From: Escherichia phage Eps7 | Length of the DNA: 64,000 nucleotides | Reading direction: 5' to 3' (one strand) | Sequence record: NC_010583.1 | In this document: piece by piece, positions 1 through 35,783 of the stretch | Layout: each line of letters opens with the position of its first letter | How positions within the stretch are numbered: position 1 is the stretch's first letter | Made by a program: the position numbers and the translations under genes | The notes under the pieces: model-generated | What the model was told of the DNA's origin: nothing | Databases searched by the model: none | What the model saw: the letters and a program-made list of their open reading frames with translations, nothing else

Positions 1-182
1 ATATACTCAGCTTGGATGTAATAATCAGGTACATGATCTTTTGGCAGATTCTTGTTAGTATCATGAACCTCAGCTCTAGCTTCTTCTTCAGAATCAAAAC
101 CACGATACCAGATTTCACCACCCCAGCCACGTTCACTTTCGGTATACTTAACAATGTGTTTCATAAGGTTTTCCTTATTAGT

Positions 183-272
183 TGGAGGAAGGTAATGGAG
201 TCGAACCATCACCATATCGCTACAGCGGGCAGGTTTTCAAGACCTGTTACATACCACTATGTCCTACCTTCC
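183..272 (-). tRNA. tRNA-Ser (anticodon UGA, type II; tentative)
   Basis: Reverse-complement T-arm (aatgg/agtcgaa/ccatc), acceptor halves ggaaggt/accttcc, anticodon hairpin caggt-tttcaag-acctg, long variable arm, encoded CCA (TGG 183-185). Confidence 0.6.
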
Positions 273-279
273 AGTTGTT

Positions 280-370
280 TGGCGGAAGAAGAGAGATTCG
301 AACTCTCAAGCCGTTTTACCAGTCAGCCACTTTCCAAGCGGTTTTCGTCACCTAATCGATTTGCTCTTCC
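280..370 (-). tRNA. tRNA, type II (possibly Ser, anticodon GGA)
   Basis: T-arm gagag/attcgaa/ctctc, acceptor ggaagaa/ctcttcc, long variable region, loop tttccaa in imperfect anticodon stem. Confidence 0.5.
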
Positions 371-544
371 GTAGATCTCAGGATTAAATCATAAACTTCA
401 TTAGCGGATACTGGAAGTATGAGATTATACATCTTTTGGTCATACCTCTGACCATACTCTATAAACACATACTCTTTAGTTAATGTATTAACAGCTAACC
501 AGATATCAGTTATAGGAGTTTTCATCATGAGTTAATCCAATGTT

Positions 545-625
545 TGGTAGGGATGGAGGGACTCGAACCCACACCCGAAGACTAGAATCTAAATCTAGCG
601 CGTCTGCCAATTTCGCCACATCCCC
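545..625 (-). tRNA. tRNA (anticodon UAG? Leu-like with short variable arm; uncertain)
   Basis: T-arm gaggg/actcgaa/cccac, acceptor agggatg/catcccc, perfect hairpin ctaga-atctaaa-tctag. Confidence 0.5.
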
Positions 626-632
626 ATTTTAT

Positions 633-851
633 TTAGTTAGAAATAAATAATAATCCCGCAACAATGGAACCTACGCCACTGAACACCATTATCAGCATAG
701 CTTCTAAGCTGATAAAGCGGACAGTATATGGAGCGCCCCAAGAATAATCAGTAAAGAAAGTTTTCTTTTCTTTAGCTAAATCTTTAACAGTTCTAAAATA
801 GATAGCTAGTGCTAAAGCTGCAAGAACTATAGAGGCTGCTAAGAATACCAT
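633..851 (-). CDS. small hydrophobic membrane protein (72 aa)
   Basis: ORF with two predicted TM-like hydrophobic stretches; position between tRNAs. Confidence 0.35.
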   Translation of the reverse strand: MVFLAASIVLAALALAIYFRTVKDLAKEKKTFFTDYSWGAPYTVRFISLEAMLIMVFSGVGSIVAGLLFISN

Positions 852-870
852 ATTATTTCCTTAATTTGTT

Positions 871-946
871 TGGTGGAGTCACTCAGAATTGAACTGAGTT
901 CCACTGCTTGCAAGGCAGTAAGTTTAACCAAATAACCTATGACCCC
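871..946 (-). tRNA. tRNA-Ala (anticodon UGC; tentative)
   Basis: T-arm ctcag/aattgaa/ctgag, acceptor ggagtca/tgacccc, anticodon hairpin actgc-ttgcaag-gcagt. Confidence 0.6.
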
Positions 947-952
947 GAATTT

Positions 953-1031
953 TGGTGGAGAATAACGGAATCGAACCGTTCTGATGTCCTCGGTGCAAGC
1001 GAGGTGTCCACTCCATGCAGACCCATTCCCC
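953..1031 (-). tRNA. tRNA (anticodon also reads UGC; identity uncertain)
   Basis: T-arm aacgg/aatcgaa/ccgtt, acceptor ggagaat/attcccc, hairpin cctcg-gtgcaag-cgagg; 7-nt variable loop. Confidence 0.5.
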
Positions 1032-1040
1032 AAAATTTAT

Positions 1041-1304
1041 TTATTCTCTATACATATCGAGAACAGTTGCTACAATCTGAGCTTCTAGCCTAGCAATATC
1101 TTTATTCACTATATCAGATTCTACTACTAAGTGATTATATATTGCTTCAGTTTTAGCAAGATCTACATCAGATAGTTTATTAAGACTATTATAATACTTA
1201 GCATTATTGCAACGTTTCTTCATATCGGAAACTCGTTTATGGAGTGTTCTTTGTTGATAACGTTGTGACATTAGTTTCTTAGCCATATCTTTCAGATCAA
1301 ACAT
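1041..1304 (-). CDS. hypothetical protein (87 aa)
   Basis: ORF downstream of a ~230-nt leader from the promoter cassette at 1545-1592. Confidence 0.4.
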   Translation of the reverse strand: MFDLKDMAKKLMSQRYQQRTLHKRVSDMKKRCNNAKYYNSLNKLSDVDLAKTEAIYNHLVVESDIVNKDIARLEAQIVATVLDMYRE

Positions 1305-1544
1305 GGATATTCCTTCTAGTTTACTAAGGCTATTAGCTCGGTGTGCGTATTACCCTCAGACATTAGCCAGTAGAGGATAATCGCTCTTCACAAACCCGAT
1401 ACACTATTCAGTTGCCGCTGAATCTAGCGGACTAATCTAGAACTTCTCCCGAGTCGTAGGGATCGTGCTTTTTTGGCAGCCAGTCCTAGGTCGAGCTAAT
1501 ACCTTAGTGAACTTTGATGAGGATTTCTCCTCATCAATTTATAT

Positions 1545-1592
1545 AAATATTATAACAAGAAATTAAGCATCAAGCAAGTACATTTTTAGCGA
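1545..1592 (-). promoter_or_regulatory. T5-type early promoter cassette (sigma70-like)
   Basis: On minus strand: A-rich UP, -35 CTTGCT, 17-nt spacer, -10 TATAAT, conserved leader ATTTATATAAATTGATGAGGAG. Confidence 0.55.
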
Positions 1593-1929
1593 TTTCTTGT
1601 AGTTCCTTAACGTCGCTAACGAAAAGGTAATCAGAGCTTCCAGAGTGCATACTCTGCATAACCACACCACCATCCGGTGCATCTTCTTTCAGTGTGATAC
1701 CTAACCAGAACTCGGCAAAACTAGGTGTTACCTCACCTTGACTTGCCTTGAACACATCGCCTTCTGTGATCTCTTGACCAGTGGAGAGTCCCATGTATGG
1801 TACGTTCAGATCAATATCTTTGTAGAACTCAGCTAGATCTTGCTCGAAATCCCAACCTTTAGAGATAGCGAACTCCATTGTTACATGACCGAAATAGCCT
1901 TGAACCTTGCTTGATAATTGCATTTGCAA
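1570..1929 (-). CDS. hypothetical protein (119 aa)
   Basis: ORF, protein-like composition. Confidence 0.5.
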   Translation of the reverse strand: MQMQLSSKVQGYFGHVTMEFAISKGWDFEQDLAEFYKDIDLNVPYMGLSTGQEITEGDVFKASQGEVTPSFAEFWLGITLKEDAPDGGVVMQSMHSGSSDYLFVSDVKELQEIAKNVLA

Positions 1930-1948
1930 TTCCTTATTTTGAGTTAAT

Positions 1949-2021
1949 TGGTACTCGGTGATAGAATCGAACTATCGCAACCGCCGTGTAAAGACGGGGT
2001 TCTCCCATTAAACTAACCGAG
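1949..2021 (-). tRNA. tRNA-Val (anticodon UAC; tentative)
   Basis: T-arm gatag/aatcgaa/ctatc, acceptor actcggt/accgagc, anticodon arm ccgcc-gtgtaaa-gacgg. Confidence 0.55.
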
Positions 2022-2026
2022 CAATT

Positions 2027-2104
2027 TGGTGGATTGCCTGGGATTCGAACCCAGAACTGACGGATTAAAGGTCCGCTACTCTTATCCAGTTGAGCTAGCA
2101 ATCC
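2027..2104 (-). tRNA. tRNA (anticodon not resolved; possibly Lys UUU)
   Basis: T-arm ctggg/attcgaa/cccag, acceptor ggattgc/gcaatcc perfect; anticodon arm ambiguous. Confidence 0.5.
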
Positions 2105-2490
2105 AATTTTTCTACTAATAATTTAAAAGCATCTAGTACAGGTACTTCAAACCATTCTCCAGATACTCTATAATCTTTAAGAAGATTATGTAATTCTTTC
2201 TCTGTACGTCTTTTATCCGACGAAAATCTGAAATGGTATAGCTTGTAGTCTCTATTAGGTGAATAAGTTTGATAACTTGTTAACCTCTCATTCACATCTA
2301 TAGTCATACCTATTTTATACATGCCTGGCCATGCTGGATTACCAATTACATATACAAAACCTTCCGTTATAGGTATTTTATGCTCCCTTTTATACTTTAA
2401 GAGATTTAAGGCTGCCATTCGATAACAGAATCTAAACTCTGAAGTTTTTAACTTACCTTCTTTACCTGAAATTTCGTTATATTTGCTCAT
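2095..2490 (-). CDS. GIY-YIG-like (T5orf172-type) domain protein
   Basis: Motifs GFVYVIGNP...YKIGMT...R...Y...E resemble the GIY-YIG/T5orf172 nuclease fold; embedded in tRNA cluster. Confidence 0.5.
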   Translation of the reverse strand: MSKYNEISGKEGKLKTSEFRFCYRMAALNLLKYKREHKIPITEGFVYVIGNPAWPGMYKIGMTIDVNERLTSYQTYSPNRDYKLYHFRFSSDKRRTEKELHNLLKDYRVSGEWFEVPVLDAFKLLVEKLDC

Positions 2491-2556
2491 ATAAGCTCTT
2501 ATGAGCTTATCATCTATAATGAAGTTATCAGGAAGGTTTAAGGCAGCTAAAAACTT

Positions 2557-2721
2557 TATTAATTAGCATAGACTTCCTTAATAGAATAAACTTTTAAGTT
2601 AAGGTGATTAATACCAAATTCCGCCATCACTTCGTTTTCATCTTTACCGTAATGGGCTAGTGGATACTTCTTACGATCTTTGCTAGAACGTAGATCACTT
2701 ACTTTTAAACGAAATAATTTC
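2557..2721 (-). CDS. hypothetical small protein (54 aa)
   Basis: ATG-initiated ORF MKLFRLKVSDLRS... found by manual translation; below the 60-aa ORF-track cutoff. Confidence 0.3.
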
Positions 2722-2743
2722 ATTTCGAAATCCTTCTATTAAA

Positions 2744-2820
2744 TTGGAAGCGGGTGCAGGAATCGAACCTACCTCTTTCTAGCTTATGAGACTAGCGATC
2801 TCTACCAGAGATCTAACCCG
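2744..2820 (-). tRNA. tRNA with CAU anticodon (Met or Ile-lysidine; tentative)
   Basis: T-arm gcagg/aatcgaa/cctac, acceptor agcgggt/acccgca, anticodon arm ctagc-ttatgag-actag. Confidence 0.55.
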
Positions 2821-2827
2821 CAATTGT

Positions 2828-2906
2828 TTGGTCTCCGTGGGAGGATTTGAACCCCCCGACCCTATCGCCCCAAACGAAACGCTCTGGCCAAACTGAGCTA
2901 CACGGA
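2828..2906 (-). tRNA. tRNA-Pro (anticodon UGG; tentative)
   Basis: T-arm ggagg/atttgaa/ccccc, acceptor ctccgtg/cacggag perfect, D-arm gctc...gagc, loop ccccaaa. Confidence 0.55.
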
Positions 2907-2934
2907 GAATATTCTTTGTTAACTCACTTTATAA

Positions 2935-2992
2935 ATATATTATACAGAGAATTAAGCTAAATAGCAACTACATTTTTAATAAATTTACTTAT
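2935..2992 (-). promoter_or_regulatory. T5-type early promoter cassette driving tRNAs at 2744-2906
   Basis: RC shows -35 GTTGCT, spacer, -10 TATAAT, conserved leader; tRNA begins about 30 nt downstream. Confidence 0.55.
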
Positions 2993-3212
2993 TAGGTAAG
3001 TCACCGAGCTATCAACTCATGCTAGCGAAAGTTTGCGAGACCTTCTTTAAGTACTAGAACACACCCGCCGATGTGTCGGACTTACTTAATAAGTAAACTT
3101 TCGTTTACTTACACCTACCTGGTCGGGAGGATTTTCAGCGACTAGAACCGGCCGGAAACTCATCGCCTTGTTTATCTAGGAGTCCGTTCTCTAGGAAGCA
3201 GAAACCTAAATT

Positions 3213-3287
3213 TGGTGCGGTCGGAGGGAATCGAACCCTCAACTTCTGGTTGGCAACCAAAAAATTATACCTTTTAACTACGAACGC
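3213..3287 (-). tRNA. tRNA-Gly (anticodon GCC; tentative)
   Basis: T-arm gaggg/aatcgaa/ccctc, acceptor gcggtcg/cgaacgc, anticodon arm tctgg-ttggcaa-ccaaa. Confidence 0.55.
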
Positions 3288-3295
3288 ATAATAAG

Positions 3296-3500
3296 TCAAT
3301 CTAGGCAGGACTTGAACCTGCTATCACTTGTGCGGATTTACGAGAACCATTCTTTCACTCGAATCGAACGAGCTTCTACCCTCGGCAAGCTGGTGTCCCC
3401 TCTCCACCACGCTAGAATGATAATTAATGCCTGCTCCTTTGAATCAAGAAGTCCACCCCGGACTTTGGGTCTTTGCAGTACATCACGCTGCTCTGATGTT
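3296..3500 (-). other. tRNA-like elements (T-arm hairpins without complete cloverleaf); possible tRNA pseudogenes or small ncRNA
   Basis: Two strong T-arm-like hairpins (gcagg-acttgaa-cctgc at 3306-3322; actcg-aatcgaa-cgagc at 3357-3373) but no matching acceptor stem found by eye. Confidence 0.3.
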
Positions 3501-3576
3501 TGGTACACCCACTAGGACTTGAACCTAGAACCCTCCGCTTAAGAGGCGGTAGCTCTAACCATTGAGCTATGGATGT
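3501..3576 (-). tRNA. tRNA (possibly Lys, anticodon CUU)
   Basis: T-arm ctagg/acttgaa/cctag perfect, D-arm gctc...gagc, acceptor acaccca/tggatgt, loop ttaagag. Confidence 0.5.
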
Positions 3577-3654
3577 ATTATTATGTTTTGCAGTGCTCTA
3601 AATATAGACACTTCCCACGCGGTGGTTATCTATACCAGCGTCCTGCAAAAATTG

Positions 3655-3731
3655 GCGCGACCGATGGGATTCGAACCCACATTTTCTCCCGTGACAGGGG
3701 AGTACCATTACCAAGCCAGCCCCGATCGCAT
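3655..3731 (-). tRNA. tRNA-Asp (anticodon GUC)
   Basis: T-arm atggg/attcgaa/cccac, acceptor gcgaccg/cgatcgc, perfect anticodon arm ctccc-gtgacag-gggag. Confidence 0.65.
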
Positions 3732-3752
3732 AATTTATTTACTCAGTTTTGA

Positions 3753-3936
3753 GTTTTTCGATAGCTTCCTCAACCTCTTTTAGAGCTTCACGACGGGCAT
3801 TCTGTTGCTGCATATCTTGAATTAATGTCAGTTTTTGTTTTTAATTTCTTGATCCCAAACCTTAATATTATTAATCAGACTATCACGATCAGCTTCTAGT
3901 CGAGCAATTGCACGAGTTGTCATATCTATTTCCTCA
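3753..3936 (-). CDS. hypothetical small coiled-coil protein (about 60 aa, apparent frameshift)
   Basis: Two short adjacent ORFs (MTTRAIARLEADRD... and ...MQQQNARREALKEVEEAIEKLKTE) join across an A5CA5 tract; manual translation only. Confidence 0.25.
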
Positions 3937-4025
3937 GTTATTAATGAAAATGGTATCTGTGACTGAATTCAATATCAGTAATGATAGCTGGTTGGCTACC
4001 GGTTTACTTAACTCTACACAGAATA

Positions 4026-4108
4026 TGGCGGGCCGTGTAGGATTCGAACCTACGTTGTCTTTCGACATGGATTAACAGTCCACCGCCAAACCGCTTGGCT
4101 AACGACCC
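4026..4108 (-). tRNA. tRNA with 13-nt variable arm; anticodon reads GUU (Asn?)
   Basis: T-arm gtagg/attcgaa/cctac perfect, acceptor gggccgt/acgaccc, anticodon arm atgga-ttaacag-tccac, variable hairpin gtc-tttc-gac. Confidence 0.5.
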
Positions 4109-4115
4109 TAAAATT

Positions 4116-4191
4116 TGGACGACCGCATGAGATTCGAACTCACATAAGGAGGTTTTGCAGGCCTCCGCCTAAGCCATTCAGCCAACGGTCG
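4116..4191 (-). tRNA. tRNA-Cys (anticodon GCA; tentative)
   Basis: T-arm atgag/attcgaa/ctcac, acceptor cgaccgc/acggtcg, anticodon arm gaggt-tttgcag-gcctc. Confidence 0.55.
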
Positions 4192-4369
4192 AGTTATCTT
4201 GCTTTTCGAGATTAGTAAACTCTAGATCTTTAGAATGTCCTATAGATCTAGCATAATAGCCATCTCCAGCATCATAGCCTGACTTACCACACTCACACAT
4301 CTTAAACTCTCTATAACGAGTGAAAATATGTTCAGAACCACAACACTTAAATTTAACTAACATTTTCAT
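4178..4369 (-). CDS. Cys-rich small protein (63 aa), putative zinc ribbon
   Basis: KFKCCGSEH...CECGKSG cysteine pattern; 3' end overlaps tRNA by about 14 nt. Confidence 0.4.
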   Translation of the reverse strand: MKMLVKFKCCGSEHIFTRYREFKMCECGKSGYDAGDGYYARSIGHSKDLEFTNLEKQDNSTVG

Positions 4370-4608
4370 TTAACACGCTCCGGTAAATCTTCGAGTTTAT
4401 ATTGAGTAGCCACATTAGCAGCATCTAGTAACAAACCCATATGTTTAAGAATCCTAGTGATAGCTTCGCCTTCTGCTTCTTCTACAAAAGTGCGTAGTTG
4501 AATGAAGTCAATACCACCATCCATACCAGAGAAAATGTTAAGTAAGCGAAGCATTACCAGCTTACGTTCTTTTAATTCTTGTTCTGCCATGTTGCTTCTC
4601 CAGTTCAA
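4366..4608 (-). CDS. hypothetical protein (80 aa)
   Basis: ORF directly downstream of promoter cassette 4625-4672; ATGA overlap with next gene. Confidence 0.45.
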   Translation of the reverse strand: MNWRSNMAEQELKERKLVMLRLLNIFSGMDGGIDFIQLRTFVEEAEGEAITRILKHMGLLLDAANVATQYKLEDLPERVK

Positions 4609-4624
4609 TTTATGTAATAATTAT

Positions 4625-4672
4625 ACAGAACTTTAAGGATTTAAGCAACTACATTTTTCAGAAATTTGATGC
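4625..4672 (-). promoter_or_regulatory. T5-type early promoter cassette
   Basis: RC: -35 GTTGCT, -10 TATAAT, conserved leader. Confidence 0.5.
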
Positions 4673-4928
4673 CTTTCTTTTTCTTCTTATACTTCCACGT
4701 TAATGGATTCTGTCGATTATGAACGCTTGAGATCTTTGTCTCGTCAAATTTCTTCAATACCATGTAATCACACGCCAACTGCTCTAGTGGAATGGTTTCT
4801 CCATCAAAAGCATAAACATAAGGCTGTTGACTAGCACGATAATGATAGACTTTGTTAACTCTACGTTTCAGCGACTTATCCGCGCAGTAAATAAAGAAGT
4901 TTTCAGGATGCATCAGCATCTCCTTCAA
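4641..4928 (-). CDS. hypothetical protein (95 aa)
   Basis: ORF; lysine-rich C-terminus overlaps the downstream promoter cassette. Confidence 0.4.
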   Translation of the reverse strand: MKEMLMHPENFFIYCADKSLKRRVNKVYHYRASQQPYVYAFDGETIPLEQLACDYMVLKKFDETKISSVHNRQNPLTWKYKKKKKGIKFLKNVVA

Positions 4929-5011
4929 ATTGGTGCAACCTGTACGTAACGATCGTACCTCTTCTCCTTTTCAGGGAGACGCTAATCCATCTCAGCTAAA
5001 GTCGCAAATAT

Positions 5012-5088
5012 TGGCAAACCTACTAGGACTCGAACCTAGACCGTACGGTTTTGGAGACCGACATGCTGTCCAGTAACACTCTAGGAAT
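5012..5088 (-). tRNA. tRNA-Trp (anticodon CCA; tentative)
   Basis: T-arm ctagg/actcgaa/cctag perfect, anticodon arm acggt-tttggag-accga; acceptor pairing imperfect. Confidence 0.5.
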
Positions 5089-5096
5089 GCAGAAAT

Positions 5097-5172
5097 TGGC
5101 GTCCTGTGCGGGGATCGAACCCGCAAATCCTACCTTGAAAGGGTAGTGACTTTACCAGTTTGTCTAACAGGA
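5097..5172 (-). tRNA. tRNA-Glu (anticodon UUC)
   Basis: T-arm gcggg/gatcgaa/cccgc, acceptor gtcctgt/acaggac perfect, anticodon arm ctacc-ttgaaag-ggtag perfect. Confidence 0.65.
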
Positions 5173-5180
5173 CTTAAATT

Positions 5181-5271
5181 TGGTGTTGGATGATGGAGTC
5201 GAACCACCCGAGACCCTTCCGAGTCGGCAGATTTACAGTCTGCTTCGCTACCTCTACGATACTAATCCAAC
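5181..5271 (-). tRNA. tRNA-Tyr (anticodon GUA, type II)
   Basis: T-arm gatgg/agtcgaa/ccacc, acceptor gttggat/atccaac perfect, anticodon arm gcaga-tttacag-tctgc perfect, long variable arm. Confidence 0.65.
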
Positions 5272-5416
5272 ATATTTGAATGAAAAATAAGTCGGTTAAA
5301 CTCAAGGTGGAATATTTCAGGAAATCCTGACTTTACCCCTAAAAGCAACTCGCTTAGTTACTTCTCATTCAGATATGTTTTCCAAATTAGATAACTATTA
5401 TATCAAGTTTTGAAGG

Positions 5417-5452
5417 ACTGAGCAAGTCAAATTTTAAAGAACTTGCTCAGTG
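5417..5452 (-). terminator. intrinsic terminator hairpin (11-bp stem)
   Basis: actgagcaagt ... acttgctcagt inverted repeat immediately downstream of the 5462-5737 gene. Confidence 0.45.
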
Positions 5453-5461
5453 CTATATCAG

Positions 5462-5737
5462 TTACTCGAAGCTAGGAGTGACACTCAGTTTGAATGGAAG
5501 CTCGAACACTTCTTCATAATCATCATTGAGCGTAATTACACGACCTTCTAGCTTAGTCATGGTGATTTCGATATCAGCCTCTGCATCAGGAGCCATACCA
5601 GCTTCCACACATTTAGCTTTGACTTCCGGCAGAAGTTCTACATCGTAGAAATAAAGCCATTCAATCTCACCTTCCCAGCCACCCCAGGATTTACAAACAG
5701 CACTTTCAACACCAGTTGCAGTAACACGTTTTGACAT
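5462..5737 (-). CDS. hypothetical protein (91 aa)
   Basis: ORF downstream of promoter cassette 5775-5815. Confidence 0.5.
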   Translation of the reverse strand: MSKRVTATGVESAVCKSWGGWEGEIEWLYFYDVELLPEVKAKCVEAGMAPDAEADIEITMTKLEGRVITLNDDYEEVFELPFKLSVTPSFE

Positions 5738-5774
5738 TCGTTAACTCCTTCATCAATTTATATAACTATTATAG

Positions 5775-5815
5775 CAGAAATCTTAAGTAAAAAGCAAGTA
5801 CATTTTTAAAATTTC
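5775..5815 (-). promoter_or_regulatory. T5-type early promoter cassette
   Basis: RC: -35 CTTGCT, -10 TATAAT, conserved leader. Confidence 0.5.
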
Positions 5816-5827
5816 TGCTTGGAGGAG

Positions 5828-6034
5828 TTAAACTCCTGATTCTTCAGCCAGATCAAGCCCAACCAACGTGATTGCCATAATAGCCGCGCCATGTTCTTTC
5901 TCTCCTAGCTCTTTGGCTTGAGTGAGAATATTTAGGAACTGCTTTTGAAAATCTGCAACTTCTTCTGTCATGCCTGCTTCAGCAATAATTCCTTTCAGCA
6001 TAAAGCGTTGTGCCGTAATTTCAGGATTAGCCAT
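5828..6034 (-). CDS. hypothetical protein (68 aa)
   Basis: ORF. Confidence 0.45.
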   Translation of the reverse strand: MANPEITAQRFMLKGIIAEAGMTEEVADFQKQFLNILTQAKELGEKEHGAAIMAITLVGLDLAEESGV

Positions 6035-6185
6035 TTATTATCTCCAGTTATTTAGAATGTAAGCCAAACTTAGGATCATAGCGATCGTAAGTCGTACCAT
6101 TAGTTGAAGCCTTGATGCTATGAAAACGACAGTACATAAATTTACGTAGTGCTTTCTTAATAGCTTTCATTTTATTTCCTTAATT

Positions 6186-6262
6186 TGGTAGGGGTGGTGG
6201 GATTCGAACCCACAAAACCTGAATTTTAAGTCCAGTACCTATGCCAATTCGATTACACCCCC
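6186..6262 (-). tRNA. tRNA (anticodon reads UAA, Leu-like but type I; uncertain)
   Basis: T-arm gtggg/attcgaa/cccac perfect, acceptor aggggtg/caccccc, anticodon arm ctgaa-ttttaag-tccag. Confidence 0.5.
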
Positions 6263-6280
6263 ATGTAATCTTAGCGAATC

Positions 6281-6603
6281 TCTAAACCCTGGAAATATCG
6301 AGGGAATGGAGAGCCAACTTCAAAATTGATGCCCCAATTAAGTTCAACGAGTTCAGATTTATTAAGATCTAGGCCATTACCTTCAAAGATATAGCCGTAA
6401 ACCGCAGGGAACATAGCTGCTAGATCTTCCATATCGGAATGAGCATTGTGTTCTTCACGGAACTGCTCAACTCTTCAATAGAACTTTTCTAGGAGACTCA
6501 GGTACGATGAACGTTACCACATCAGTAGAATCATCGGTACGATACACCGTAGCTTGGAACAAGCCAACACCTAAAAGGTTTATTGCCGGAGTAGTAAAAA
6601 TAT
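6281..6603 (-). CDS. hypothetical protein (about 107 aa, apparent +1 frameshift near 6470)
   Basis: Two sub-threshold ORFs (MDIFTTPAINLLG... and ...EQFREEHNAHSDMEDLAAMFPAVYGYIFEGNGLDL...) in adjacent frames. Confidence 0.3.
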
Positions 6604-6608
6604 CCATC

Positions 6609-6794
6609 TTAGCCTCGCTCAATGTCTAGACAAATTGCATATTCAGGGTTGATACCAGTACCTTTACATGTAGGACATTCCCATTCTCTACAGAAAATAT
6701 CCCCAGGTTCTGCATCATCCTGCCTACCACTACCATGACAGTCCTTACACCGACATTCTTCTAATGCTTTCTTCATTTCATAGAATCTAGACAT
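6609..6794 (-). CDS. DnaJ-type zinc-finger mini-protein (61 aa)
   Basis: Two CxxCxGxG motifs (CKDCHGSG, CPTCKGTG) plus additional Cys pairs. Confidence 0.45.
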   Translation of the reverse strand: MSRFYEMKKALEECRCKDCHGSGRQDDAEPGDIFCREWECPTCKGTGINPEYAICLDIERG

Positions 6795-6811
6795 ATAGTC
6801 TCCTAGTTAAT

Positions 6812-6889
6812 TGGTGGCTCCCGGAGGATTCGAACCTACCTACCTTTCGCTTATGAGGCGACGGCTCATACCAAATGAGCTTGAGAACC
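6812..6889 (-). tRNA. tRNA with CAU anticodon (Met or Ile-lysidine; tentative)
   Basis: T-arm ggagg/attcgaa/cctac, D-arm gctc...gagc, anticodon arm ttcgc-ttatgag-gcgac. Confidence 0.55.
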
Positions 6890-6894
6890 AAATT

Positions 6895-6988
6895 TGGAGG
6901 AAGATGCCAGATTCGAACTGGCACACCGTGTCTCCACAGCTACTGGCTGTTTAGCAAACAGCTCCCTTACCTTTAGGGTTAATCTTCC
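6895..6988 (-). tRNA. tRNA-Ser (anticodon GCU, type II)
   Basis: T-arm gccag/attcgaa/ctggc perfect, acceptor ggaagat/atcttcc perfect, anticodon arm gctgt-ttagcaa-acagc perfect, long variable arm. Confidence 0.65.
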
Positions 6989-6999
6989 GAATTTATGAA

Positions 7000-7045
7000 T
7001 ATATTATACAGAAAATTTCGGCATTAAGCAAGTGAAATTTTACTG
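7000..7045 (-). promoter_or_regulatory. T5-type early promoter cassette driving tRNAs at 6812-6988
   Basis: RC: -35 CTTGCT, -10 TATAAT, conserved leader. Confidence 0.5.
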
Positions 7046-7336
7046 AACATTGCACTGATATACTTGTTTGATACGTGTCACTGACTTCTTAGTTGGGTTG
7101 ATAGAAGAACCCTGCCACCAACGTGATTCTGAGCTGAGAACAGCCCCAGGAACAGCTTGTTCTTTTGGCAGAACAATATCAAAACACTGTTCACCCATAT
7201 TATCTTTAATGTGCGACCAAATGTCTAGAGTAAATCGTTCTAGCTTATTACAAACTTGAACTTGACAAAGTTCCTGTTGTGGAGCAGCAAATACAGAAGT
7301 AGATACTAGAGTCAATGCAAGTACAATGCGTTTCAT
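7040..7336 (-). CDS. secreted/periplasmic protein with signal peptide (98 aa)
   Basis: MKRIVLALTLVSTSVFA signal peptide then Cys-containing mature part; the ORF-track MREESN prefix is read-through of the conserved leader. Confidence 0.5.
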   Translation of the reverse strand: MKRIVLALTLVSTSVFAAPQQELCQVQVCNKLERFTLDIWSHIKDNMGEQCFDIVLPKEQAVPGAVLSSESRWWQGSSINPTKKSVTRIKQVYQCNVQ

Positions 7337-7362
7337 ATTTGATTCCTCTCTCAAATTTATAA

Positions 7363-7400
7363 ATATATTATACAGAAATTTTCTATATAAGCAAGGTAAA
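7363..7400 (-). promoter_or_regulatory. T5-type early promoter cassette
   Basis: RC: -35 CTTGCT, 17-nt spacer, -10 TATAAT, leader ...TTTGAGAGAGGAATCAA then ATG. Confidence 0.55.
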
Positions 7401-7436
7401 AATTTATGTATATAGCCCTCTAAGCGAGGGCTATAA
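7398..7436 (-). terminator. intrinsic terminator
   Basis: Hairpin tatagccctc-taagc-gagggctata followed on the minus strand by a U-run. Confidence 0.5.
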
Positions 7437-7441
7437 CTACT

Positions 7442-8134
7442 TTATTTGTTAACGCGTACAAAGTATCCTTTATAGGCTCCCATAATAGAGTTACCTAAGA
7501 ATACTAGCCACATTGCTAGGATTGCATAAGATGCACCTGTAGATTGAGCAGTTACAAGCCAAATGTACACAGTACCAATGTTAATAGCAATCCAAATCAG
7601 CCATTGTTCAGCATATTGTTTGACCATAAGCCACATAGCAATCACACTACCTACCGCAGTAAATGCATCCAACATTGGGAATGGATCAGCCGTAGTAGCA
7701 AGGAAACTACCATAACCTAACGTGGCTACTGCTAAAATCCCTAGAGTCAGCAAAGCTTGAGCTTTTGTCAGAACTTTAGTTGGAACATCCGGCAGATTAC
7801 TTGGCTTATTTTTATGCCATAAGTACATTCCATAAAACTGCATAGGAACGTAGTATAGCAGGTTTAGTGCAGCGTTACCATAAAGATCTGCGTTTAAAGC
7901 TGTAATACCATATGTAAGAACACCCACTAAGCCCCAAATATAGTTGGAAACACGTCCTTTTGCAACCAGAATAACACAAACCACATTGGTTATTGCAGTA
8001 GCCCAATCTAGAGCTGTACCATTATAGTTTGCTAAACTAATAAAGGCGACTGCTATAAACAGCCACAGATATTCCAGAGGTTTCCAGTTTTTAAAGTCAT
8101 TTACGAGATAGTTAGTCATATTAAAACTCTCCAA
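7442..8134 (-). CDS. pnuC: nicotinamide riboside transporter PnuC-like membrane protein
   Basis: 230-aa polytopic membrane protein; GMYLWHK and VKQYAEQWLIWIAINI match PnuC signatures GWYAW and RKYVENWLLWVIINV. Confidence 0.65.
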   Translation of the reverse strand: MESFNMTNYLVNDFKNWKPLEYLWLFIAVAFISLANYNGTALDWATAITNVVCVILVAKGRVSNYIWGLVGVLTYGITALNADLYGNAALNLLYYVPMQFYGMYLWHKNKPSNLPDVPTKVLTKAQALLTLGILAVATLGYGSFLATTADPFPMLDAFTAVGSVIAMWLMVKQYAEQWLIWIAINIGTVYIWLVTAQSTGASYAILAMWLVFLGNSIMGAYKGYFVRVNK

Positions 8135-9176
8135 AGATAAAGTGATGAATCAGCCAGTCTACTGCGTTTACTGCTTCGTCCATACGAACTTTGTAGTCCG
8201 GAGAGTCGATGTAAACAGTACGCCCTTCAGGGAACTGATTTGGAAATTCTTTCTTCATCTGCTCGAACAGTTCAGAAGTAATTGAACGATCGGAGTTAAT
8301 ACGTAAACCATCATCTACCCACTTGACAGTAGGCGCTAGAACAATTACTAAATCGTAATGTTCTTCTTTTGCAATTGCTGTAACCACAGGGTTCTTACTA
8401 TGTTCATAAAGTCTGTGGTAGAACTCAGTAATAAAAGCATTTGTATCCACAAACATGATCTTATTTGCAGTACGTTTTGCTTCAAACTCTAGCTCTTTGT
8501 GTCTGAACGCAATTTTACTATAGTCTTCGCTGGTAAGCAGATTTTCGTTACCAACTAGATCAACTTCACAATACGTTCGGCCATATTCTTTTACCCACGA
8601 AGTGTTGTATAGCTTCGCAAGGTATTTTGTTAAAGTAGTCTTTCCTGAGCTTTCAGTCCCAATGATTACAACCTTACGCACGTAATCTTTACGAACTACG
8701 CTAGGAAGAAACTCCCAATACTTCATAAGATCATTACGAATCATTGTAGCTGAGATTGGAACACGAGTCCGATCAGAATCTACAATATAATGACCAAACT
8801 TCGGCAGATATTTCTTATATTCTGCATCATAGTCTAGTTCGCTAGAGAAAATGGTGATCTCAGGCAAATGTCCGTAATTTTCATTAAGGATTCTAGCATA
8901 TTCCGGCCAACCATTCGGATATTCAGGAATATCATCTTCAATAATGTACTCTACCGAAATGTGCTCAATATCCGCGTAAGTTTGTTCTAACCAACGAAGT
9001 CGATTCTTTAACTGTAATACTTCCTGATCACGTGTGTTCTGCTTATCCAGCCAACGATTATCATGACTAACTACAACAATAACTCGTTCACACATAGTTG
9101 CTGCTGTGTTTATTAGGTTAATATGACCACGCGTTAATGGCGCGAACTTACCAATTACTAGACCAGTCTTAATCAT
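8121..9176 (-). CDS. nadR: NadR-like bifunctional NMN adenylyltransferase / ribosylnicotinamide kinase
   Basis: N-terminal nucleotidyltransferase motif GKFAPLTRGH (HxGH), C-terminal P-loop GTESSGKTT; true start MIKTGL (track MREESN prefix is leader). Confidence 0.65.
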   Translation of the reverse strand: MIKTGLVIGKFAPLTRGHINLINTAATMCERVIVVVSHDNRWLDKQNTRDQEVLQLKNRLRWLEQTYADIEHISVEYIIEDDIPEYPNGWPEYARILNENYGHLPEITIFSSELDYDAEYKKYLPKFGHYIVDSDRTRVPISATMIRNDLMKYWEFLPSVVRKDYVRKVVIIGTESSGKTTLTKYLAKLYNTSWVKEYGRTYCEVDLVGNENLLTSEDYSKIAFRHKELEFEAKRTANKIMFVDTNAFITEFYHRLYEHSKNPVVTAIAKEEHYDLVIVLAPTVKWVDDGLRINSDRSITSELFEQMKKEFPNQFPEGRTVYIDSPDYKVRMDEAVNAVDWLIHHFIFGEF

Positions 9177-30419: not shown

Positions 30420-30915
30420 ATTTATATTGAATTGAGAGACATTAGTAAAAATTGATTTTGCTAATTTTTCTTGTTTACAATCCGCAATACGGAACAGTTA
30501 GGCTGCCCCATTAAGGGTTGTTTTAACTATTACTAGTGTTTATACTGCATTAGTTAATTATCAATTAAGTGATCTGCGTACCCTGAATTCGGAAAGGTAA
30601 ATCCAAACCGTGCATATTTAGCTCGTTATATAGGCAGAGCTTTATATGGGGGTGCGAACGAAAAGAGCAGCGAATGGTGACACGTCCAGTAGCCACCTAC
30701 CAATAGGATAGTGAGGGCAATCAGAATCGGCTTAGCGGCCAATGACCTAGGTTCTGATCTGGATAAGAGTTAAGAGAGCGCAGCACTGAGGTATGATAAC
30801 TTATTCATACTGCTTGATGATGATTAATGTTTGTGTAAATGGTAGTAATAGTTGTTCTATTCTTTTGAATAGTCCTAAAGAAAGATATTCGAATAACCAA
30901 CATAGGAGTATTGTT

Positions 30916-33705: not shown

Positions 33706-33922
33706 AAAGTGGGAAACAAGGAAGTTTCCAGTAAAAGAACGTAAAACTTCTGTTTACGATACTGCGGAGAAACTATGTAGGGTTGTACCACCTCGTCTCG
33801 CTGGCATCCCTAATGTCTCCATATGGTTACTTAAACAACGGAAGACTCGTGTGTCTCTTCGCATTGGCTTTGAGTTAGATAAAGTCTATGCTGAACTTGC
33901 TTCTTTGCTCAAAGAATCATAA
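33689..33922 (+). CDS. hypothetical protein (77 aa)
   Basis: ORF MTVKNKKWETRKF... overlapping previous stop. Confidence 0.45.
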   Translation: MTVKNKKWETRKFPVKERKTSVYDTAEKLCRVVPPRLAGIPNVSIWLLKQRKTRVSLRIGFELDKVYAELASLLKES

Positions 33923-33931
33923 AAATTTTAT

Positions 33932-33960
33932 TTGCTTTCAGGAAAAATTTTCTGTATAAT
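33932..33960 (+). promoter_or_regulatory. T5-type promoter (TTGCTT, 17 nt, TATAAT)
   Basis: Conserved leader ...ATAAATTTGAGAGAGGAGTTTAAAT then ATG at 33992. Confidence 0.6.
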
Positions 33961-33991
33961 AGATTCATAAATTTGAGAGAGGAGTTTAAAT

Positions 33992-34696
33992 ATGGCTGGT
34001 TCTCGTAGAAAGAAACTTATCCATGAAATCCCTGATGAAACCTTTAAAAAGGTTATTGAACATCTGGAGAATGGTGGTACTAAGAAAGCAGCCTGTGAGA
34101 TGCTCGGTGTTTCTTCTAACCCAACTATGGAACGAATGATCGAGGAATGGAGAGATCGTCAGGTTCAAGTTGCGGAAATGAAAAAGAAGAAGCGCGGAAC
34201 ACTAATTGAAGGTGTTGAGCTTGCAAACGTAATTGAACAGTATCTTTCTGGTGATTCTTTTGAAGAAATCGCAGATCGTAACTATCGTTCTGTAGCGATG
34301 ATTAAATCTGTTCTGGAACGTTATGGTGCTCTGCTTCGTTTAAACGATATTGTTGATCCATTGAATCCTCCATTGATTCCTGATGATGCAATGGCAGAAG
34401 AATTTGAAGTTGGCGAACTTGTTTGGGTTCCCGGCTACCAGTGTATTGGTGAAATCAAGAAAGCAATGACTAACCCAGTTGGCTGCTACCGTGTTTGGTT
34501 GTTATCAGAAGGTAAACAACAGAACGTTCACTATATGCACTACGAATTAGCTTCTGTTAAACATCTGGAAAAGCTGGGAGTTGATGTTAAAGCTCTGGGC
34601 TTTAAATGGAGCCGTGAAGAAGTTATCACGTTGGTTAATGAAGCTGTTAAAGCCGCCCTGAAACTCGATAAAGAGAAAGGAAAACGTCGTGAGTAA
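33992..34696 (+). CDS. hypothetical protein (234 aa), possible HTH DNA-binding regulator
   Basis: N-terminal helix-turn-helix-like segment (GGTKKAACEMLGVSSNPTMERMI); strong promoter. Confidence 0.55.
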   Translation: MAGSRRKKLIHEIPDETFKKVIEHLENGGTKKAACEMLGVSSNPTMERMIEEWRDRQVQVAEMKKKKRGTLIEGVELANVIEQYLSGDSFEEIADRNYRSVAMIKSVLERYGALLRLNDIVDPLNPPLIPDDAMAEEFEVGELVWVPGYQCIGEIKKAMTNPVGCYRVWLLSEGKQQNVHYMHYELASVKHLEKLGVDVKALGFKWSREEVITLVNEAVKAALKLDKEKGKRRE

Positions 34697-34922
34697 ACTA
34701 ACTGATCTGTTAAAAGCTGGAGACGTGAAATATCTCCAGCGAGATAGCTGGAAGAACACCCGAGACTTTACATTCTTGTTAAAATTTGATGTAGATAGTG
34801 ACACTGTTAAGCTATATGAGTGGCCTAGTATACACTGCGTACGCCCGATAGTAACAGTAGTTAATCTTAGTCTAGAAGAAGCTCTGGCCGACGATTGGGA
34901 GATCGTTGAACTAGATGTGTAG
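34689..34922 (+). CDS. hypothetical protein (77 aa)
   Basis: ORF overlapping previous stop. Confidence 0.5.
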   Translation: MSKLTDLLKAGDVKYLQRDSWKNTRDFTFLLKFDVDSDTVKLYEWPSIHCVRPIVTVVNLSLEEALADDWEIVELDV

Positions 34923-34942
34923 CAGTTACTGAAAAATTTCAG

Positions 34943-34971
34943 TTGCTTAATCCTGTAATTCTTGATATAAT
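34943..34971 (+). promoter_or_regulatory. T5-type promoter (TTGCTT, 17 nt, TATAAT)
   Basis: Preceded by a short palindrome (actgaaa..tttcagt). Confidence 0.55.
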
Positions 34972-35029
34972 ATTCTCATAGTTTGAAAGAACTATTCTGT
35001 TTAATTCTTAATTAAGGAAATCGAAAAAT

Positions 35030-35440
35030 ATGACTACTCCAACTCAGTGGACTGATGAACTGTTCGAAAAAATGTCTTCCGACTACGTTGCTCGTATGGA
35101 GCAATTCCCAGAAGATGAGCGTCCGGGCGTTAGCATGGAAATTGTTAGCGAAATTGCTCAGGAAAATGGTGTAACTCCGAACGGTTTCCGTATGAAGCTG
35201 ACCAAAGCAGGTCTGTATATCAAGAAAGCTGCTGGCTCTACTTCTAAATCAAGCGCATCTACTGGAGAAAAAGCTTCTGGTGGTTCTCGTACTTCCAAAG
35301 CTCAGGCGCACTCCGATCTTCGCTCTGCATTCTCTGATGCTGGCTTAGCACCGGACTTCCTGGACGACGCAATCATCGACAAGCTGACCGGTAAAGCAGC
35401 TGCTCATCTGGCAGAAGCTATCCGAGCTATCACTAAGTAA
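35030..35440 (+). CDS. hypothetical protein (136 aa), probably abundant
   Basis: Codon usage strongly biased to preferred codons (GCT, GGT, CTG, CGT). Confidence 0.6.
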   Translation: MTTPTQWTDELFEKMSSDYVARMEQFPEDERPGVSMEIVSEIAQENGVTPNGFRMKLTKAGLYIKKAAGSTSKSSASTGEKASGGSRTSKAQAHSDLRSAFSDAGLAPDFLDDAIIDKLTGKAAAHLAEAIRAITK

Positions 35441-35476
35441 TTCTTAGATAAATCCACCAACACAAGGAATACAGTT

Positions 35477-35773: not shown

Positions 35774-35783
35774 GAAACCAATT

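What the first reader, a model, noticed from the sequence alone, without database searches (positions are those of the whole stretch)
3296..3500. tRNA-like hairpins that do not complete a cloverleaf: tRNA pseudogenes or a small tRNA-derived ncRNA
Between two intact tRNAs lie two strong T-arm-like hairpins (gcagg-acttgaa-cctgc at 3306-3322 and actcg-aatcgaa-cgagc at 3357-3373) and a D-arm-like gctt...aagc hairpin, but I could not find matching acceptor stems or anticodon arms. The region is about 200 nt with no ORF. It may be decayed tRNA genes, a tRNA with unusual structure or insertion, or a tRNA-like ncRNA.
Basis: seen in the sequence. Interest (0 to 1): 0.45.

Follow-up and report, generated by a model that had tools for sequence, protein, structure and literature searches.

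The report
Phage T5 "RNA2" tRNA-like RNA
The two orphan T-arm hairpins belong to one 126-base tRNA-shaped RNA, the counterpart of phage T5's long-known "RNA2" of unknown function, in which the anticodon loop is replaced by a highly conserved folded module, so it cannot read codons.

Summary
The window comes from a T5-like phage (Epseptimavirus) and carries a minus-strand tRNA cluster. The hairpins are real, but they are neither decayed tRNAs nor two separate elements. Window 3294-3419 (minus) is about 90% identical to T5 rna2. GenBank AY543070 annotates rna2 as a 125-nt "tRNA-like stable RNA with unknown functions".

Comparing 28 relatives gives a well-supported structure:
- a 7-bp acceptor stem (one U·U mismatch here), a D arm, a 5-bp anticodon-stem equivalent, a variable loop and a T arm;
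- in place of the anticodon loop, a 55-nt three-way junction with a second T-loop hairpin, an invariant UGAAAGAAUGG stretch, a hairpin with an 11-nt loop, and a covarying pseudoknot pair.

Overall, 95.9% of pair cells are paired and 22 of 29 pairs show compensatory changes. ARAGORN and Rfam call nothing here.

The family also occurs in Acinetobacter T4-like phages and in uncultured phage contigs. There the tRNA scaffold diverges or decays while the module persists. The remaining 81 nt of the flagged span (3420-3500) is a dispensable spacer.

The function is still unknown. My best inference is a tRNA-scaffolded effector or decoy RNA. The entity is already known; the structural model and cross-family distribution may be new.

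The parts
3294..3419 (-). Whole RNA2 homolog (126 nt): a tRNA-shaped ncRNA
   Evidence: 89.6-91% identical over its full length to T5 rna2 (AY543070 32959-33083, 'tRNA-like stable RNA with unknown functions'). Covariance model R1 hit at 144.8 bits, E=1e-35.
3412..3418 (-). Acceptor stem, 5' strand (AUUCUAG). C3419 can add an 8th pair with G3297.
   Evidence: Pairs with 3298-3304. All 7 pairs show compensatory changes across 28 sequences, and 93.4% of cells are paired. This phage has one U·U mismatch.
3391..3409 (-). D arm: UGGUG-GAGAGGGGA-CACCA
   Evidence: All 5 pairs show compensatory changes (for example UGCCG/CGGCA, UGACU/AGUCA). The loop keeps a G run.
3386..3390 (-). Anticodon-stem equivalent, 5' strand (GCUUG)
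   Evidence: Pairs with 3326-3330 (CAAGU). 100% of cells are paired and all 5 pairs covary (CCUG/CAGG, CCUC/GAGG, CUCCG/CGGAG, CCCUA/UAGGG).
3373..3385 (-). Junction J1 (CCGAGGGUAGAAG) with an invariant GG and G-X-A
   Evidence: Conserved columns. G3376 and A3375 form the pseudoknot pairs.
3357..3373 (-).
   Evidence: Stem covaries (CUCG/CGAG, AUGG/CCAU, CCCG/CGGG, UACGG/CCGUA). 95.7% of cells are paired.
3350..3357 (-). Junction J2, UGAAAGAA, near-invariant
   Evidence: Conserved in T5-like, Acinetobacter T4-like and metagenomic members. The metagenomic members were retrieved with a pattern covering this stretch, which biases their conservation.
3333..3349 (-). Inner hairpin 2: UGG-UUCUCGUAAAU-CCG (11-nt loop UUCNCRUAARU)
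   Evidence: Two G-C pairs are invariant and a third is U·G or U-A. It extends to 4 bp (AUGG/CCAU) in other lineages.
3342..3343 (-). Pseudoknot partners in the hairpin-2 loop (U3343, C3342), pairing with A3375 and G3376
   Evidence: Column pair 51-86: A-U in 20 sequences, U-A in 4, C-G in 3, plus G-C in L049 after a 1-nt shift. Changes occur independently within clades. The neighbouring G-C pair is invariant in all 28.
3326..3330 (-). Anticodon-stem equivalent, 3' strand (CAAGU)
   Evidence: See 3386-3390.
3305..3325 (-).
   Evidence: Three T-stem pairs covary and G53-C61-type pairs are invariant. 96.4% of cells are paired.
3298..3304 (-). Acceptor stem, 3' strand (CUAGAUU)
   Evidence: It follows the T stem immediately, as in a tRNA.
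3294..3297 (-). Discriminator G (3297) and tail ACU. CCA is not encoded here.
   Evidence: KKP_3711, L012/vB_Kpn_3, AAS21 and L088 encode CCA at exactly this position. T5 has ACA.
3420..3500 (-). 81-nt spacer between tRNA-Lys(CUU) and RNA2; not part of the RNA
   Evidence: Absent in relatives where RNA2 follows a tRNA directly (L014, L025). Found separately upstream of tRNA-Phe in Klebsiella Sugarlandvirus phages. Fold z-score -0.5. No Rfam match.
3213..3287 (-). Flanking tRNA-Gly(GCC), starting 9 nt after the RNA2 discriminator
   Evidence: ARAGORN and Rfam.
3501..3576 (-). Flanking tRNA-Lys(CUU)
   Evidence: ARAGORN and Rfam.

Best explanation
Window 3294-3419 (minus strand) encodes the Epseptimavirus ortholog of bacteriophage T5 RNA2, a ~125-nt stable tRNA-like RNA. 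Shown here: it folds as a tRNA body, with a 7-bp acceptor stem, D arm, 5-bp anticodon-stem equivalent, 4-nt variable loop and T arm. The 7-nt anticodon loop is replaced by a 55-nt three-way junction. That junction comprises a 13-nt strand with an invariant GG, a second hairpin carrying a canonical T-loop sequence, the invariant UGAAAGAA, and a hairpin with an 11-nt loop locked to the first strand by a covarying 2-bp pseudoknot. Inferred: it is co-transcribed with the neighbouring tRNAs. Its tRNA-like body lets the host tRNA machinery excise and stabilise it (RNase P at the 5' end, exonucleases and perhaps the CCA-adding enzyme at the 3' end). The body therefore acts as a natural 'tRNA scaffold'. 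The RNA cannot decode. The conserved module is the working part and most probably binds a factor common to many bacteria. I put about 0.3 on a tRNA-handling or translation factor and about 0.25 on a tRNA-targeting immune nuclease for which it would be an uncleavable mimic. The confidence given below refers to identity and architecture, not to the function.
For: Identity: 89.6-91% identity over the full length to T5 rna2, annotated 'tRNA-like stable RNA with unknown functions' in AY543070 and AY692264. The tRNA-cluster context and strand are the same. Architecture: on 28 sequences aligned to model R1, 95.9% of pair cells are standard pairs, against 30-46% when partners are slid. 22 of 29 pairs show changes on both sides. 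The covariation score is 0.57 against at most 0.11. The pseudoknot pair shows A-U, U-A and C-G. Four unrelated acceptor-stem sequences are each fully complementary, and four lineages encode CCA right after the discriminator. Metagenomic members keep a textbook D arm, U8-A9-GCUU-AAUUGGUA-GAGC. Not a decoder: ARAGORN and Rfam tRNA/tmRNA models find nothing at E<=10. Module under selection: mean pairwise identity is 0.73 for the module against 0.44 for the scaffold across 14 lineages. Acinetobacter T4-like phages keep the module while the acceptor and D stems degrade. Prevalence: 502 phage records carry it. Accessory role: the viable T5Mos variant lacks 30661-38625, which includes rna2 (PMC11464382). 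T5-family tRNAs are known counter-measures to tRNA-cleaving defences, and competition with host tRNAs has been suggested (PMC12409363).
Against: No function is demonstrated anywhere. Expression rests on a GenBank note for T5, not on data I could read. This phage's acceptor stem has a U·U mismatch and no encoded CCA, unlike its neighbouring tRNAs. The thermodynamic fold of the single sequence does not give the cloverleaf (z about 0). The alignment used for counting was fitted to the model. The metagenomic members were retrieved with a pattern lying inside the module, which inflates its apparent conservation. PARIS evasion by T5Mos is restored by three ordinary tRNAs, so RNA2 is not needed against that system. 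No protein partner co-occurs with the RNA.
Confidence: 0.82

Rival explanations
1. Remnants of one or two decayed tRNA genes, carried along passively in the tRNA cluster.
For: No tRNA is called here. Two T-arm-like hairpins suggest two ancestral tRNAs. There is a U·U mismatch in the acceptor stem of this phage. One chimeric relative, vB_Kpn_3, has a broken D stem.
Against: Compensatory changes occur in 22 of 29 pairs plus a tertiary pair. Loops and junctions are near-invariant between T5-like, T4-like and uncultured phages. 502 phage records retain it while the adjacent spacers come and go. The T5 homolog is annotated as a stable RNA.
Confidence: 0.03
2. An interrupted tRNA gene: the 55-nt module is an intron or removable insertion, and a functional decoder tRNA is made after excision and ligation.
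For: The insertion sits exactly where tRNA introns sit, at the anticodon loop. The scaffold is otherwise tRNA-like, and canonical in L088, L064 and L078.
Against: The residues flanking the helix (GC... and ...CA/UA) offer no U33 or plausible 7-nt anticodon loop. 55 nt is far too short for a group I intron, and Rfam finds no intron or ribozyme. The module is more conserved than the supposed exons. The scaffold decays in Acinetobacter phages while the module persists. T5 annotates the full 125 nt as the stable species.
Confidence: 0.04
3. The 5' two-thirds is a genuine tRNA-Arg(CCG), using inner hairpin 1 as its T arm, as annotated in Enterobacter phage KKP_3711.
For: A 70-nt tRNA-Arg(ccg) is annotated on the homologous stretch of KKP_3711. 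In this window UCAUUCU can pair 7/7 with AGAAUGG downstream of hairpin 1 (seen directly in the sequence).
Against: Neither ARAGORN nor Rfam calls it in this window. The alternative acceptor pairing fails in L012, AAS21, Kamaji and the metagenomic members, whereas the terminal acceptor stem and the long-range helix covary. Four extra nucleotides separate the T stem from that acceptor strand.
Confidence: 0.02
4. A miniature tmRNA-like ribosome-rescue RNA: a tRNA-like domain without an anticodon that enters stalled ribosomes.
For: Acceptor stem plus T arm without an anticodon loop, as in the tmRNA tRNA-like domain. CCA is encoded in several lineages. In Acinetobacter phage ZZ1 the next gene encodes an RF-1-domain protein.
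Against: No G3·U70 except in Kamaji, and the acceptor sequences are not conserved. There is no conserved tag reading frame: candidate frames are not maintained across relatives, as seen by reading the sequences. Rfam tmRNA scores 7.3 bits against a gathering score of 47, and ARAGORN finds none. The RF-1 neighbour is absent in phages 133 and Acj9.
Confidence: 0.03
5. Only a processing or punctuation element: a tRNA-like fold that guides RNase P and other RNases to cut the polycistronic tRNA transcript, with no role as a free RNA.
For: It lies between tRNAs in the operon. The tRNA-like body is what RNase P recognises (established knowledge). It is dispensable in T5Mos.
Against: Punctuation would not need a 55-nt module with invariant loops and a covarying pseudoknot. 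Neighbouring tRNAs provide RNase P sites themselves. Acinetobacter versions lose the acceptor stem but keep the module. The T5 RNA accumulates as a stable species according to its annotation.
Confidence: 0.08

Closest known systems
Bacteriophage T5 RNA2 (gene rna2; GenBank AY543070 32959-33083, AY692264 32962-33086)
   Same: Orthologous: about 90% identity over the full length, same strand and tRNA-cluster context, same predicted structure.
   Different: Neighbours differ. In T5, rna2 follows an ORF and is followed by rnaIV. Here it lies between tRNA-Lys(CUU) plus an 81-nt spacer and tRNA-Gly(GCC). This copy has a U·U mismatch in the acceptor stem and one extra D-loop base. The T5 record gives no structure or function.
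Bacteriophage T4 species 1 and species 2 stable RNAs (rnaC, rnaD)
   Same: Small stable RNAs of unknown function encoded in a phage tRNA cluster. rnaC also ends in a T arm plus an acceptor-like stem.
   Different: Not homologous. No BLAST similarity, and model R1 gives rnaC 16 bits (E=0.13), within the range of ordinary tRNAs (13-33 bits). The conserved module is absent.
Engineered 'tRNA scaffold' RNAs (anticodon arm replaced by a cargo RNA to obtain stable, correctly processed RNA in E. coli; recalled from the literature, see also PMC3753655 listed)
   Same: Same design logic: the acceptor, D and T framework is kept, the anticodon stem carries a foreign structured insert, and the tRNA machinery is expected to process it.
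   Different: RNA2 is natural and the role of its cargo module is unknown. Processing of RNA2 has not been shown here.
tmRNA tRNA-like domain
   Same: Acceptor stem plus T arm without an anticodon loop, with a CCA end in some lineages.
   Different: No alanine identity pair, no tag ORF, no tmRNA pseudoknots, about 125 nt instead of 260-400. Rfam and ARAGORN are negative.
Bacterial Y-RNA-like YrlA and other tRNA mimics
   Same: ncRNAs that reuse T-arm, D-arm and acceptor-like modules without decoding (from memory).
   Different: In YrlA the RNA ends lie at the anticodon side and form the Ro-binding helix. Here the ends form the acceptor stem. No Rfam match.

Membership tests
T5 RNA2 (rna2) family | Full-length sequence homology to T5 rna2 | tested here: met
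   89.6% over 125 nt; 91% mean column identity including flanks.
T5 RNA2 (rna2) family | Location in the phage tRNA cluster, on the same strand as the tRNAs | tested here: met
   Between tRNA-Lys and tRNA-Gly on the minus strand. In T5 it lies among tRNAs on the same strand.
T5 RNA2 (rna2) family | Shared secondary structure maintained by covariation | tested here: met
   R1 hit at 144.8 bits. 95.9% of cells paired and 22 of 29 pairs compensatory.
T5 RNA2 (rna2) family | Accumulates as a stable ~125-nt RNA in infected cells | not testable with these tools
   Only the GenBank note for T5. The primary papers are not held.
Canonical tRNA (Rfam RF00005) | Anticodon arm with a 7-nt loop and an anticodon | tested here: not met
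   No ARAGORN or Rfam hit at E<=10. 55 nt lie between the strands of the anticodon-stem equivalent.
Canonical tRNA (Rfam RF00005) | 7-bp acceptor stem contiguous with a 5-bp T stem and a UUCRANY loop | tested here: met
   3412-3418 with 3298-3304, and 3305-3321. One U·U mismatch in this phage.
Canonical tRNA (Rfam RF00005) | 3' CCA after the discriminator | tested here: not met
   G-ACU here. CCA is encoded in KKP_3711, L012, AAS21 and L088. Post-transcriptional addition is not testable.
tRNA pseudogene | Relaxed constraint: helices decay and there is no compensatory change | tested here: not met
tmRNA (RF00023) | G3·U70, a tag reading frame and pseudoknots PK1-4 | tested here: not met
   7.3 bits against a gathering score of 47 (T arm only). 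ARAGORN finds no tmRNA. Acceptor sequences vary.
T4 rnaC/rnaD | Sequence or structure homology | tested here: not met
   R1 gives 16 bits, E=0.13, on rnaC and nothing on rnaD. The sequences were read.
Group I intron-containing tRNA or self-cleaving ribozyme | Match to intron or ribozyme models; anticodon loop restorable after excision | tested here: not met
   No Rfam family at E<=10. The flanking residues give no U33 or anticodon context.

The most novel reading that the evidence does not exclude
RNA2 is the founding member of a widespread phage family of tRNA-scaffolded effector RNAs. The family is found in T5-like phages, Acinetobacter T4-like phages, and uncultured soil and jumbo phages. 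Its pseudoknotted double-T-loop module, sitting where the anticodon loop should be, would make it an uncleavable tRNA mimic that titrates tRNA-targeting immune nucleases, or that captures a universal tRNA-handling factor. This would be a non-decoding arm of the phage tRNA counter-defence strategy.
Probability: 0.25. Interest if true: 0.8.

Novelty: already known. Interest (0 to 1): 0.42.

Why it matters
The element itself has sat in the T5 GenBank record for about two decades as an orphan 'tRNA-like stable RNA with unknown functions'. In most of the roughly 500 related phage genomes it is unannotated, miscalled as a hypothetical ORF, or in one case called tRNA-Arg.

This analysis adds three things:
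- a covariation-backed structure showing one tRNA body that carries a conserved, pseudoknotted module instead of an anticodon loop;
- evidence that selection acts on the module rather than on the scaffold;
- homologs in unrelated phage groups.

Together these turn an old orphan into a defined RNA family with precise, mutable targets. Phage tRNA clusters are now being recognised as counter-measures to tRNA-cleaving immunity, so the timing is useful. If the module proves to bind a defence nuclease or a core tRNA factor, it would be a new class of phage anti-host RNA. If not, it is at least a family that deserves an Rfam model and correct annotation.

Tried and rejected
- **tRNA and RNA-family calls.** ARAGORN on the whole window, and Rfam at gathering and at E<=10, give no tRNA, tmRNA, RNase P, intron or ribozyme in 3288-3500.
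- **Single-sequence folding.** Folds of 3288-3500 on both strands and of 3294-3419 have z-scores of 0.8, -0.3 and 0.0, so they are uninformative. The minimum-energy fold is not the conserved fold.
Rejected in favour of the covarying helices.
- **Short reading frames through the module** (MVLVNPHK and similar). They are not maintained across relatives. Rejected.
- **Hammerhead-like three-way junction.** The core sequences do not match and there is no Rfam hit.
- **Homology to T4 rnaC/rnaD.** None found.
- **An extended pseudoknot or a J1-to-hairpin-2 helix (CGAGGG/UUCUCG).** Not conserved. Only the 2-bp G-X/N-C interaction survives.
- **Column pair 88-97.** Probably phylogenetic coincidence.
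- **A conserved protein neighbour.** The RF-1-domain gene lies next to the RNA only in ZZ1, not in phages 133 or Acj9.
- **An isotype origin for the scaffold.** No convincing match to any of the window's 21 tRNAs.
- **Homologs or long complementarity in E. coli genomes and plasmids.** None.
- **Literature.** Eight full-text searches found nothing on RNA2 structure or function. The T5 genome paper and the T5 deletion-mutant paper are not held.
- **Pattern scans.** Most pattern hits in metagenome and genome collections were chance matches and were discarded by the covariance model.

Full report
**Source and context.** The window is a T5-like phage of the genus Epseptimavirus. It is about 99% identical over 1.5 kb to Salmonella phage SB13 and Escherichia phage PSa2. 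ARAGORN finds 21 tRNAs, all on the minus strand, and Rfam confirms 19 of them. The finding lies between tRNA-Lys(CUU) at 3501-3576 and tRNA-Gly(GCC) at 3213-3287. Neither ARAGORN nor Rfam, even at E<=10, places any tRNA, tmRNA or other family in 3288-3500.

**Checking the observation.**
- Read on the minus strand, both hairpins are canonical T arms. The other is GCUCG-UUCGAUU-CGAGU at 3357-3373.
- A scan of the whole window for such hairpins finds them in the called tRNAs, in these two places, and once more at 291-307. Shuffles give about 7 per 64 kb on both strands. So the pair is not chance.

**What it is.**
- BLAST of the 213-nt gap shows it is modular. The 3' 125 nt, minus-strand positions 82-206, are kept at about 90% identity in about 500 Demerecviridae records, including T5 itself. 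The 5' 80 nt have a separate distribution.
- T5 record AY587007 annotates nothing there.
- Records AY543070 and AY692264 annotate exactly this stretch as misc_RNA rna2: 'RNA2, tRNA-like stable RNA with unknown functions', 125 nt.
- Window 3294-3419 aligns to it end to end at 89.6-91% identity.
- The same T5 record lists three more stable RNAs (rnaIV, rna2H, rna3). All have homologs in the window.

**Structure.** I collected relatives from four sources:
- T5-like phages;
- divergent Demerecviridae: Enterobacter phage KKP_3711, a Sugarlandvirus-like contig L012, Klebsiella vB_Kpn_3, Serratia Kamaji and Pantoea AAS21;
- Acinetobacter T4-like phages 133, ZZ1, AB1I1M-1 and Acj9;
- metagenome and genome pattern scans filtered with a covariance model.

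The consensus is one tRNA-shaped molecule. In window coordinates:
- acceptor stem 3412-3418 with 3298-3304;
- D arm 3391-3409;
- a 5-bp anticodon-stem equivalent, 3386-3390 with 3326-3330;
- variable loop 3322-3325;
- T arm 3305-3321;
- discriminator G3297.

Between the strands of the anticodon-stem equivalent lie 55 nt instead of a 7-nt loop:
- junction J1 (3373-3385);
- inner hairpin 1 with a T-loop sequence (3357-3373);
- UGAAAGAA (3350-3357);
- inner hairpin 2 with an 11-nt loop (3333-3349);
- two further bases.

**Support for the structure.**
- On 28 sequences aligned to model R1, 95.9% of pair cells are standard pairs, against 30-46% when partners are slid by 1-3 columns.
- 22 of 29 pairs change on both sides, and the covariation score is 0.57 against at most 0.11. 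No shuffle out of 500 reaches the observed values.
- The acceptor stem is especially telling. AUUCUAG/CUAGGAU (T5), GUUCUAG/CUAGAAC (KKP_3711), UACGGGG/UCCCGUA (L012), AGACAAU/AUUGUCU (AAS21), GGGUACU/GGUAUCC (Kamaji) and UACUGAC/GUCAGUA (L049) are all complementary.
- KKP_3711, L012/vB_Kpn_3, AAS21 and L088 encode CCA immediately after the discriminator.
- An all-against-all column scan added a fifth pair to the long-range helix. It also found a tertiary pair between J1 and the hairpin-2 loop (A3375-U3343 here). That pair appears as A-U, U-A, C-G and, with a one-base shift, G-C. It switches independently within the Acinetobacter and metagenomic groups and lies next to an invariant G-C.
- Caveats: the alignment is fitted to the model, and many rows are close T5 relatives.

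**What is under selection.**
- Across 14 lineage representatives the module is 73% identical on average and the scaffold 44%.
- The metagenomic members were fished with a 21-nt pattern inside the module, which inflates this contrast. The Acinetobacter phages were found by BLAST, however, and show the same picture: the module is intact while the D stem is reduced and the acceptor pairing is weak or absent.
- Conversely, soil and sediment members (L088, L064/L067, L078, L049) have a textbook tRNA body, with U8, A14, G18G19 and a D stem GCUU/GAGC.
- L049 is a phage contig by PHROG content. L078 sits in an array of 47 tRNAs.
- The family is therefore best described as a tRNA body carrying a conserved cargo.
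- No copy or long complement exists in E. coli genomes or plasmids. There is only one copy in the window.

**The rest of the flagged span.**
- Window 3420-3500 is not part of the RNA.
- Close relatives place RNA2 4-6 nt after a tRNA without it (L014, L025).
- Klebsiella Sugarlandvirus phages carry the same 80 nt upstream of tRNA-Phe instead.
- It has no fold signal (z = -0.5) and no Rfam match.

**How it probably works.**
- Shown: the architecture, its conservation, the absence of an anticodon loop, and its position inside a run of same-strand tRNAs. No promoter-like site lies between it and the upstream tRNAs. The only good minus-strand site, at 2967-2939, aligns to the T5 stretch annotated there as promoter P13a and lies downstream.
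- Inferred from established tRNA biology: RNase P and 3' exonucleases release it from the polycistronic transcript through its acceptor, T and D framework. The body gives it tRNA-like stability, as in engineered tRNA scaffolds. It cannot decode.
- More speculative: the J1 GG docks into the inner T-loop as G18G19 dock into a normal T-loop, giving a second 'elbow'. This cannot be tested by covariation because these bases never vary.
- The module probably binds something common to enterobacteria, Acinetobacter and soil bacteria.
- T5Mos, a viable T5 variant, lacks 30661-38625, which spans rna2 (PMC11464382). So the RNA is accessory.
- T5 tRNAs are now known to counter PARIS and retron Eco7, and competition of viral tRNAs with host tRNAs for the nuclease has been suggested (PMC12409363).
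- A tRNA mimic with no cleavable anticodon loop fits that theme. However, three ordinary tRNAs suffice against PARIS, so if RNA2 is a decoy its target is something else.

**Rivals.** The pseudogene reading, the intron-containing tRNA, the tRNA-Arg(CCG) call made in KKP_3711, a mini-tmRNA and a pure processing signal are each addressed in the rival list. All conflict with the covariation pattern, the module's conservation or the model searches.

**Comparison with known systems and verdict.**
- It is a member of the T5 RNA2 family by sequence, context and structure.
- It is not a tRNA, a tmRNA, or a relative of T4 rnaC/rnaD (R1 gives 16 bits, within the tRNA background).
- I found no paper in the searchable library describing its structure, distribution or function. 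The primary T5 literature is not held, so I cannot exclude earlier descriptions.
- Verdict: a real, conserved, structured ncRNA that is already known as an entity. The structural model, the pseudoknot and the cross-family distribution are the added value.

Noticed in passing
window 3951-4023 (minus): Homolog (94.5%) of T5 rna3, annotated 'putative tRNA-like RNA'. It is 73 nt, ends in CCA, and has an acceptor-like stem and a 6-bp stem with a 6-nt loop where the anticodon arm would be. ARAGORN and Rfam do not call it.
   Followed up: partly
window ~2985-3101 (minus); core 3029-3080: Homolog of T5 rnaIV ('stable RNA with unknown functions', 103 nt). It is followed at 2967-2939 by a sigma-70-like site (TTGCTA-17-TATAAT) that aligns to the T5 stretch annotated as promoter P13a.
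   Followed up: partly
window 1388-1501 (minus): Homolog of the first 113 nt of T5 rna2H (172-nt 'stable RNA with unknown functions'), 94.7% identical. The 3' third did not align.
   Followed up: no
window 279-371 (minus): Probable tRNA-Ser(GGA) missed by both ARAGORN and Rfam. Features: acceptor GGAAGAG/UUCUUCC, G, CCA; T arm GAGAG-UUCGAAU-CUCUC; loop UUGGAAA on a 4-bp stem; long variable arm. It is conserved in 429 phage records and annotated as tRNA-Ser in only some of them.
   Followed up: partly
window 3420-3500: An 81-nt spacer module that is present or absent among close relatives. It recurs at 94-97% identity upstream of tRNA-Phe in Klebsiella Sugarlandvirus phages, so spacers as well as genes are shuffled in these tRNA clusters.
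   Followed up: partly
window 3113-3212 (minus): About 100 nt between tRNA-Gly and the rnaIV homolog have no counterpart in T5. Other relatives (Seabear, Stitch) carry a further ~110 nt in the Pro-Gly gap.
   Followed up: no
L037 1183-1307 (Klebsiella phage vB_Kpn_3): A chimeric RNA2. Its ends and 5' D-stem strand are of the L012 type and its middle is of the T5 type. This leaves three D-stem mismatches and one T-stem mismatch, apparently from recombination inside the gene.
   Followed up: no
L078 (contig Ga0308158_10000004, 1.46 Mb), 1-8283: 47 tRNA genes in 8.3 kb, with an RNA2-family member at 6022-6141 between tRNA-Gly(GCC) and tRNA-Pro. I could not determine whether the contig is a bacterial chromosome or a very large phage.
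   Followed up: no
L035 628-858 (Acinetobacter phage ZZ1): A 76-aa RF-1-domain (peptide-release-factor-like) protein gene starts 16 nt after the RNA2-like element. The adjacency is not repeated in phages 133 or Acj9.
   Followed up: yes
L005 684-753 (Enterobacter phage KKP_3711): The 5' two-thirds of the RNA2 homolog is annotated as tRNA-Arg(ccg). This is probably an annotation artefact that could recur in other pipelines.
   Followed up: partly
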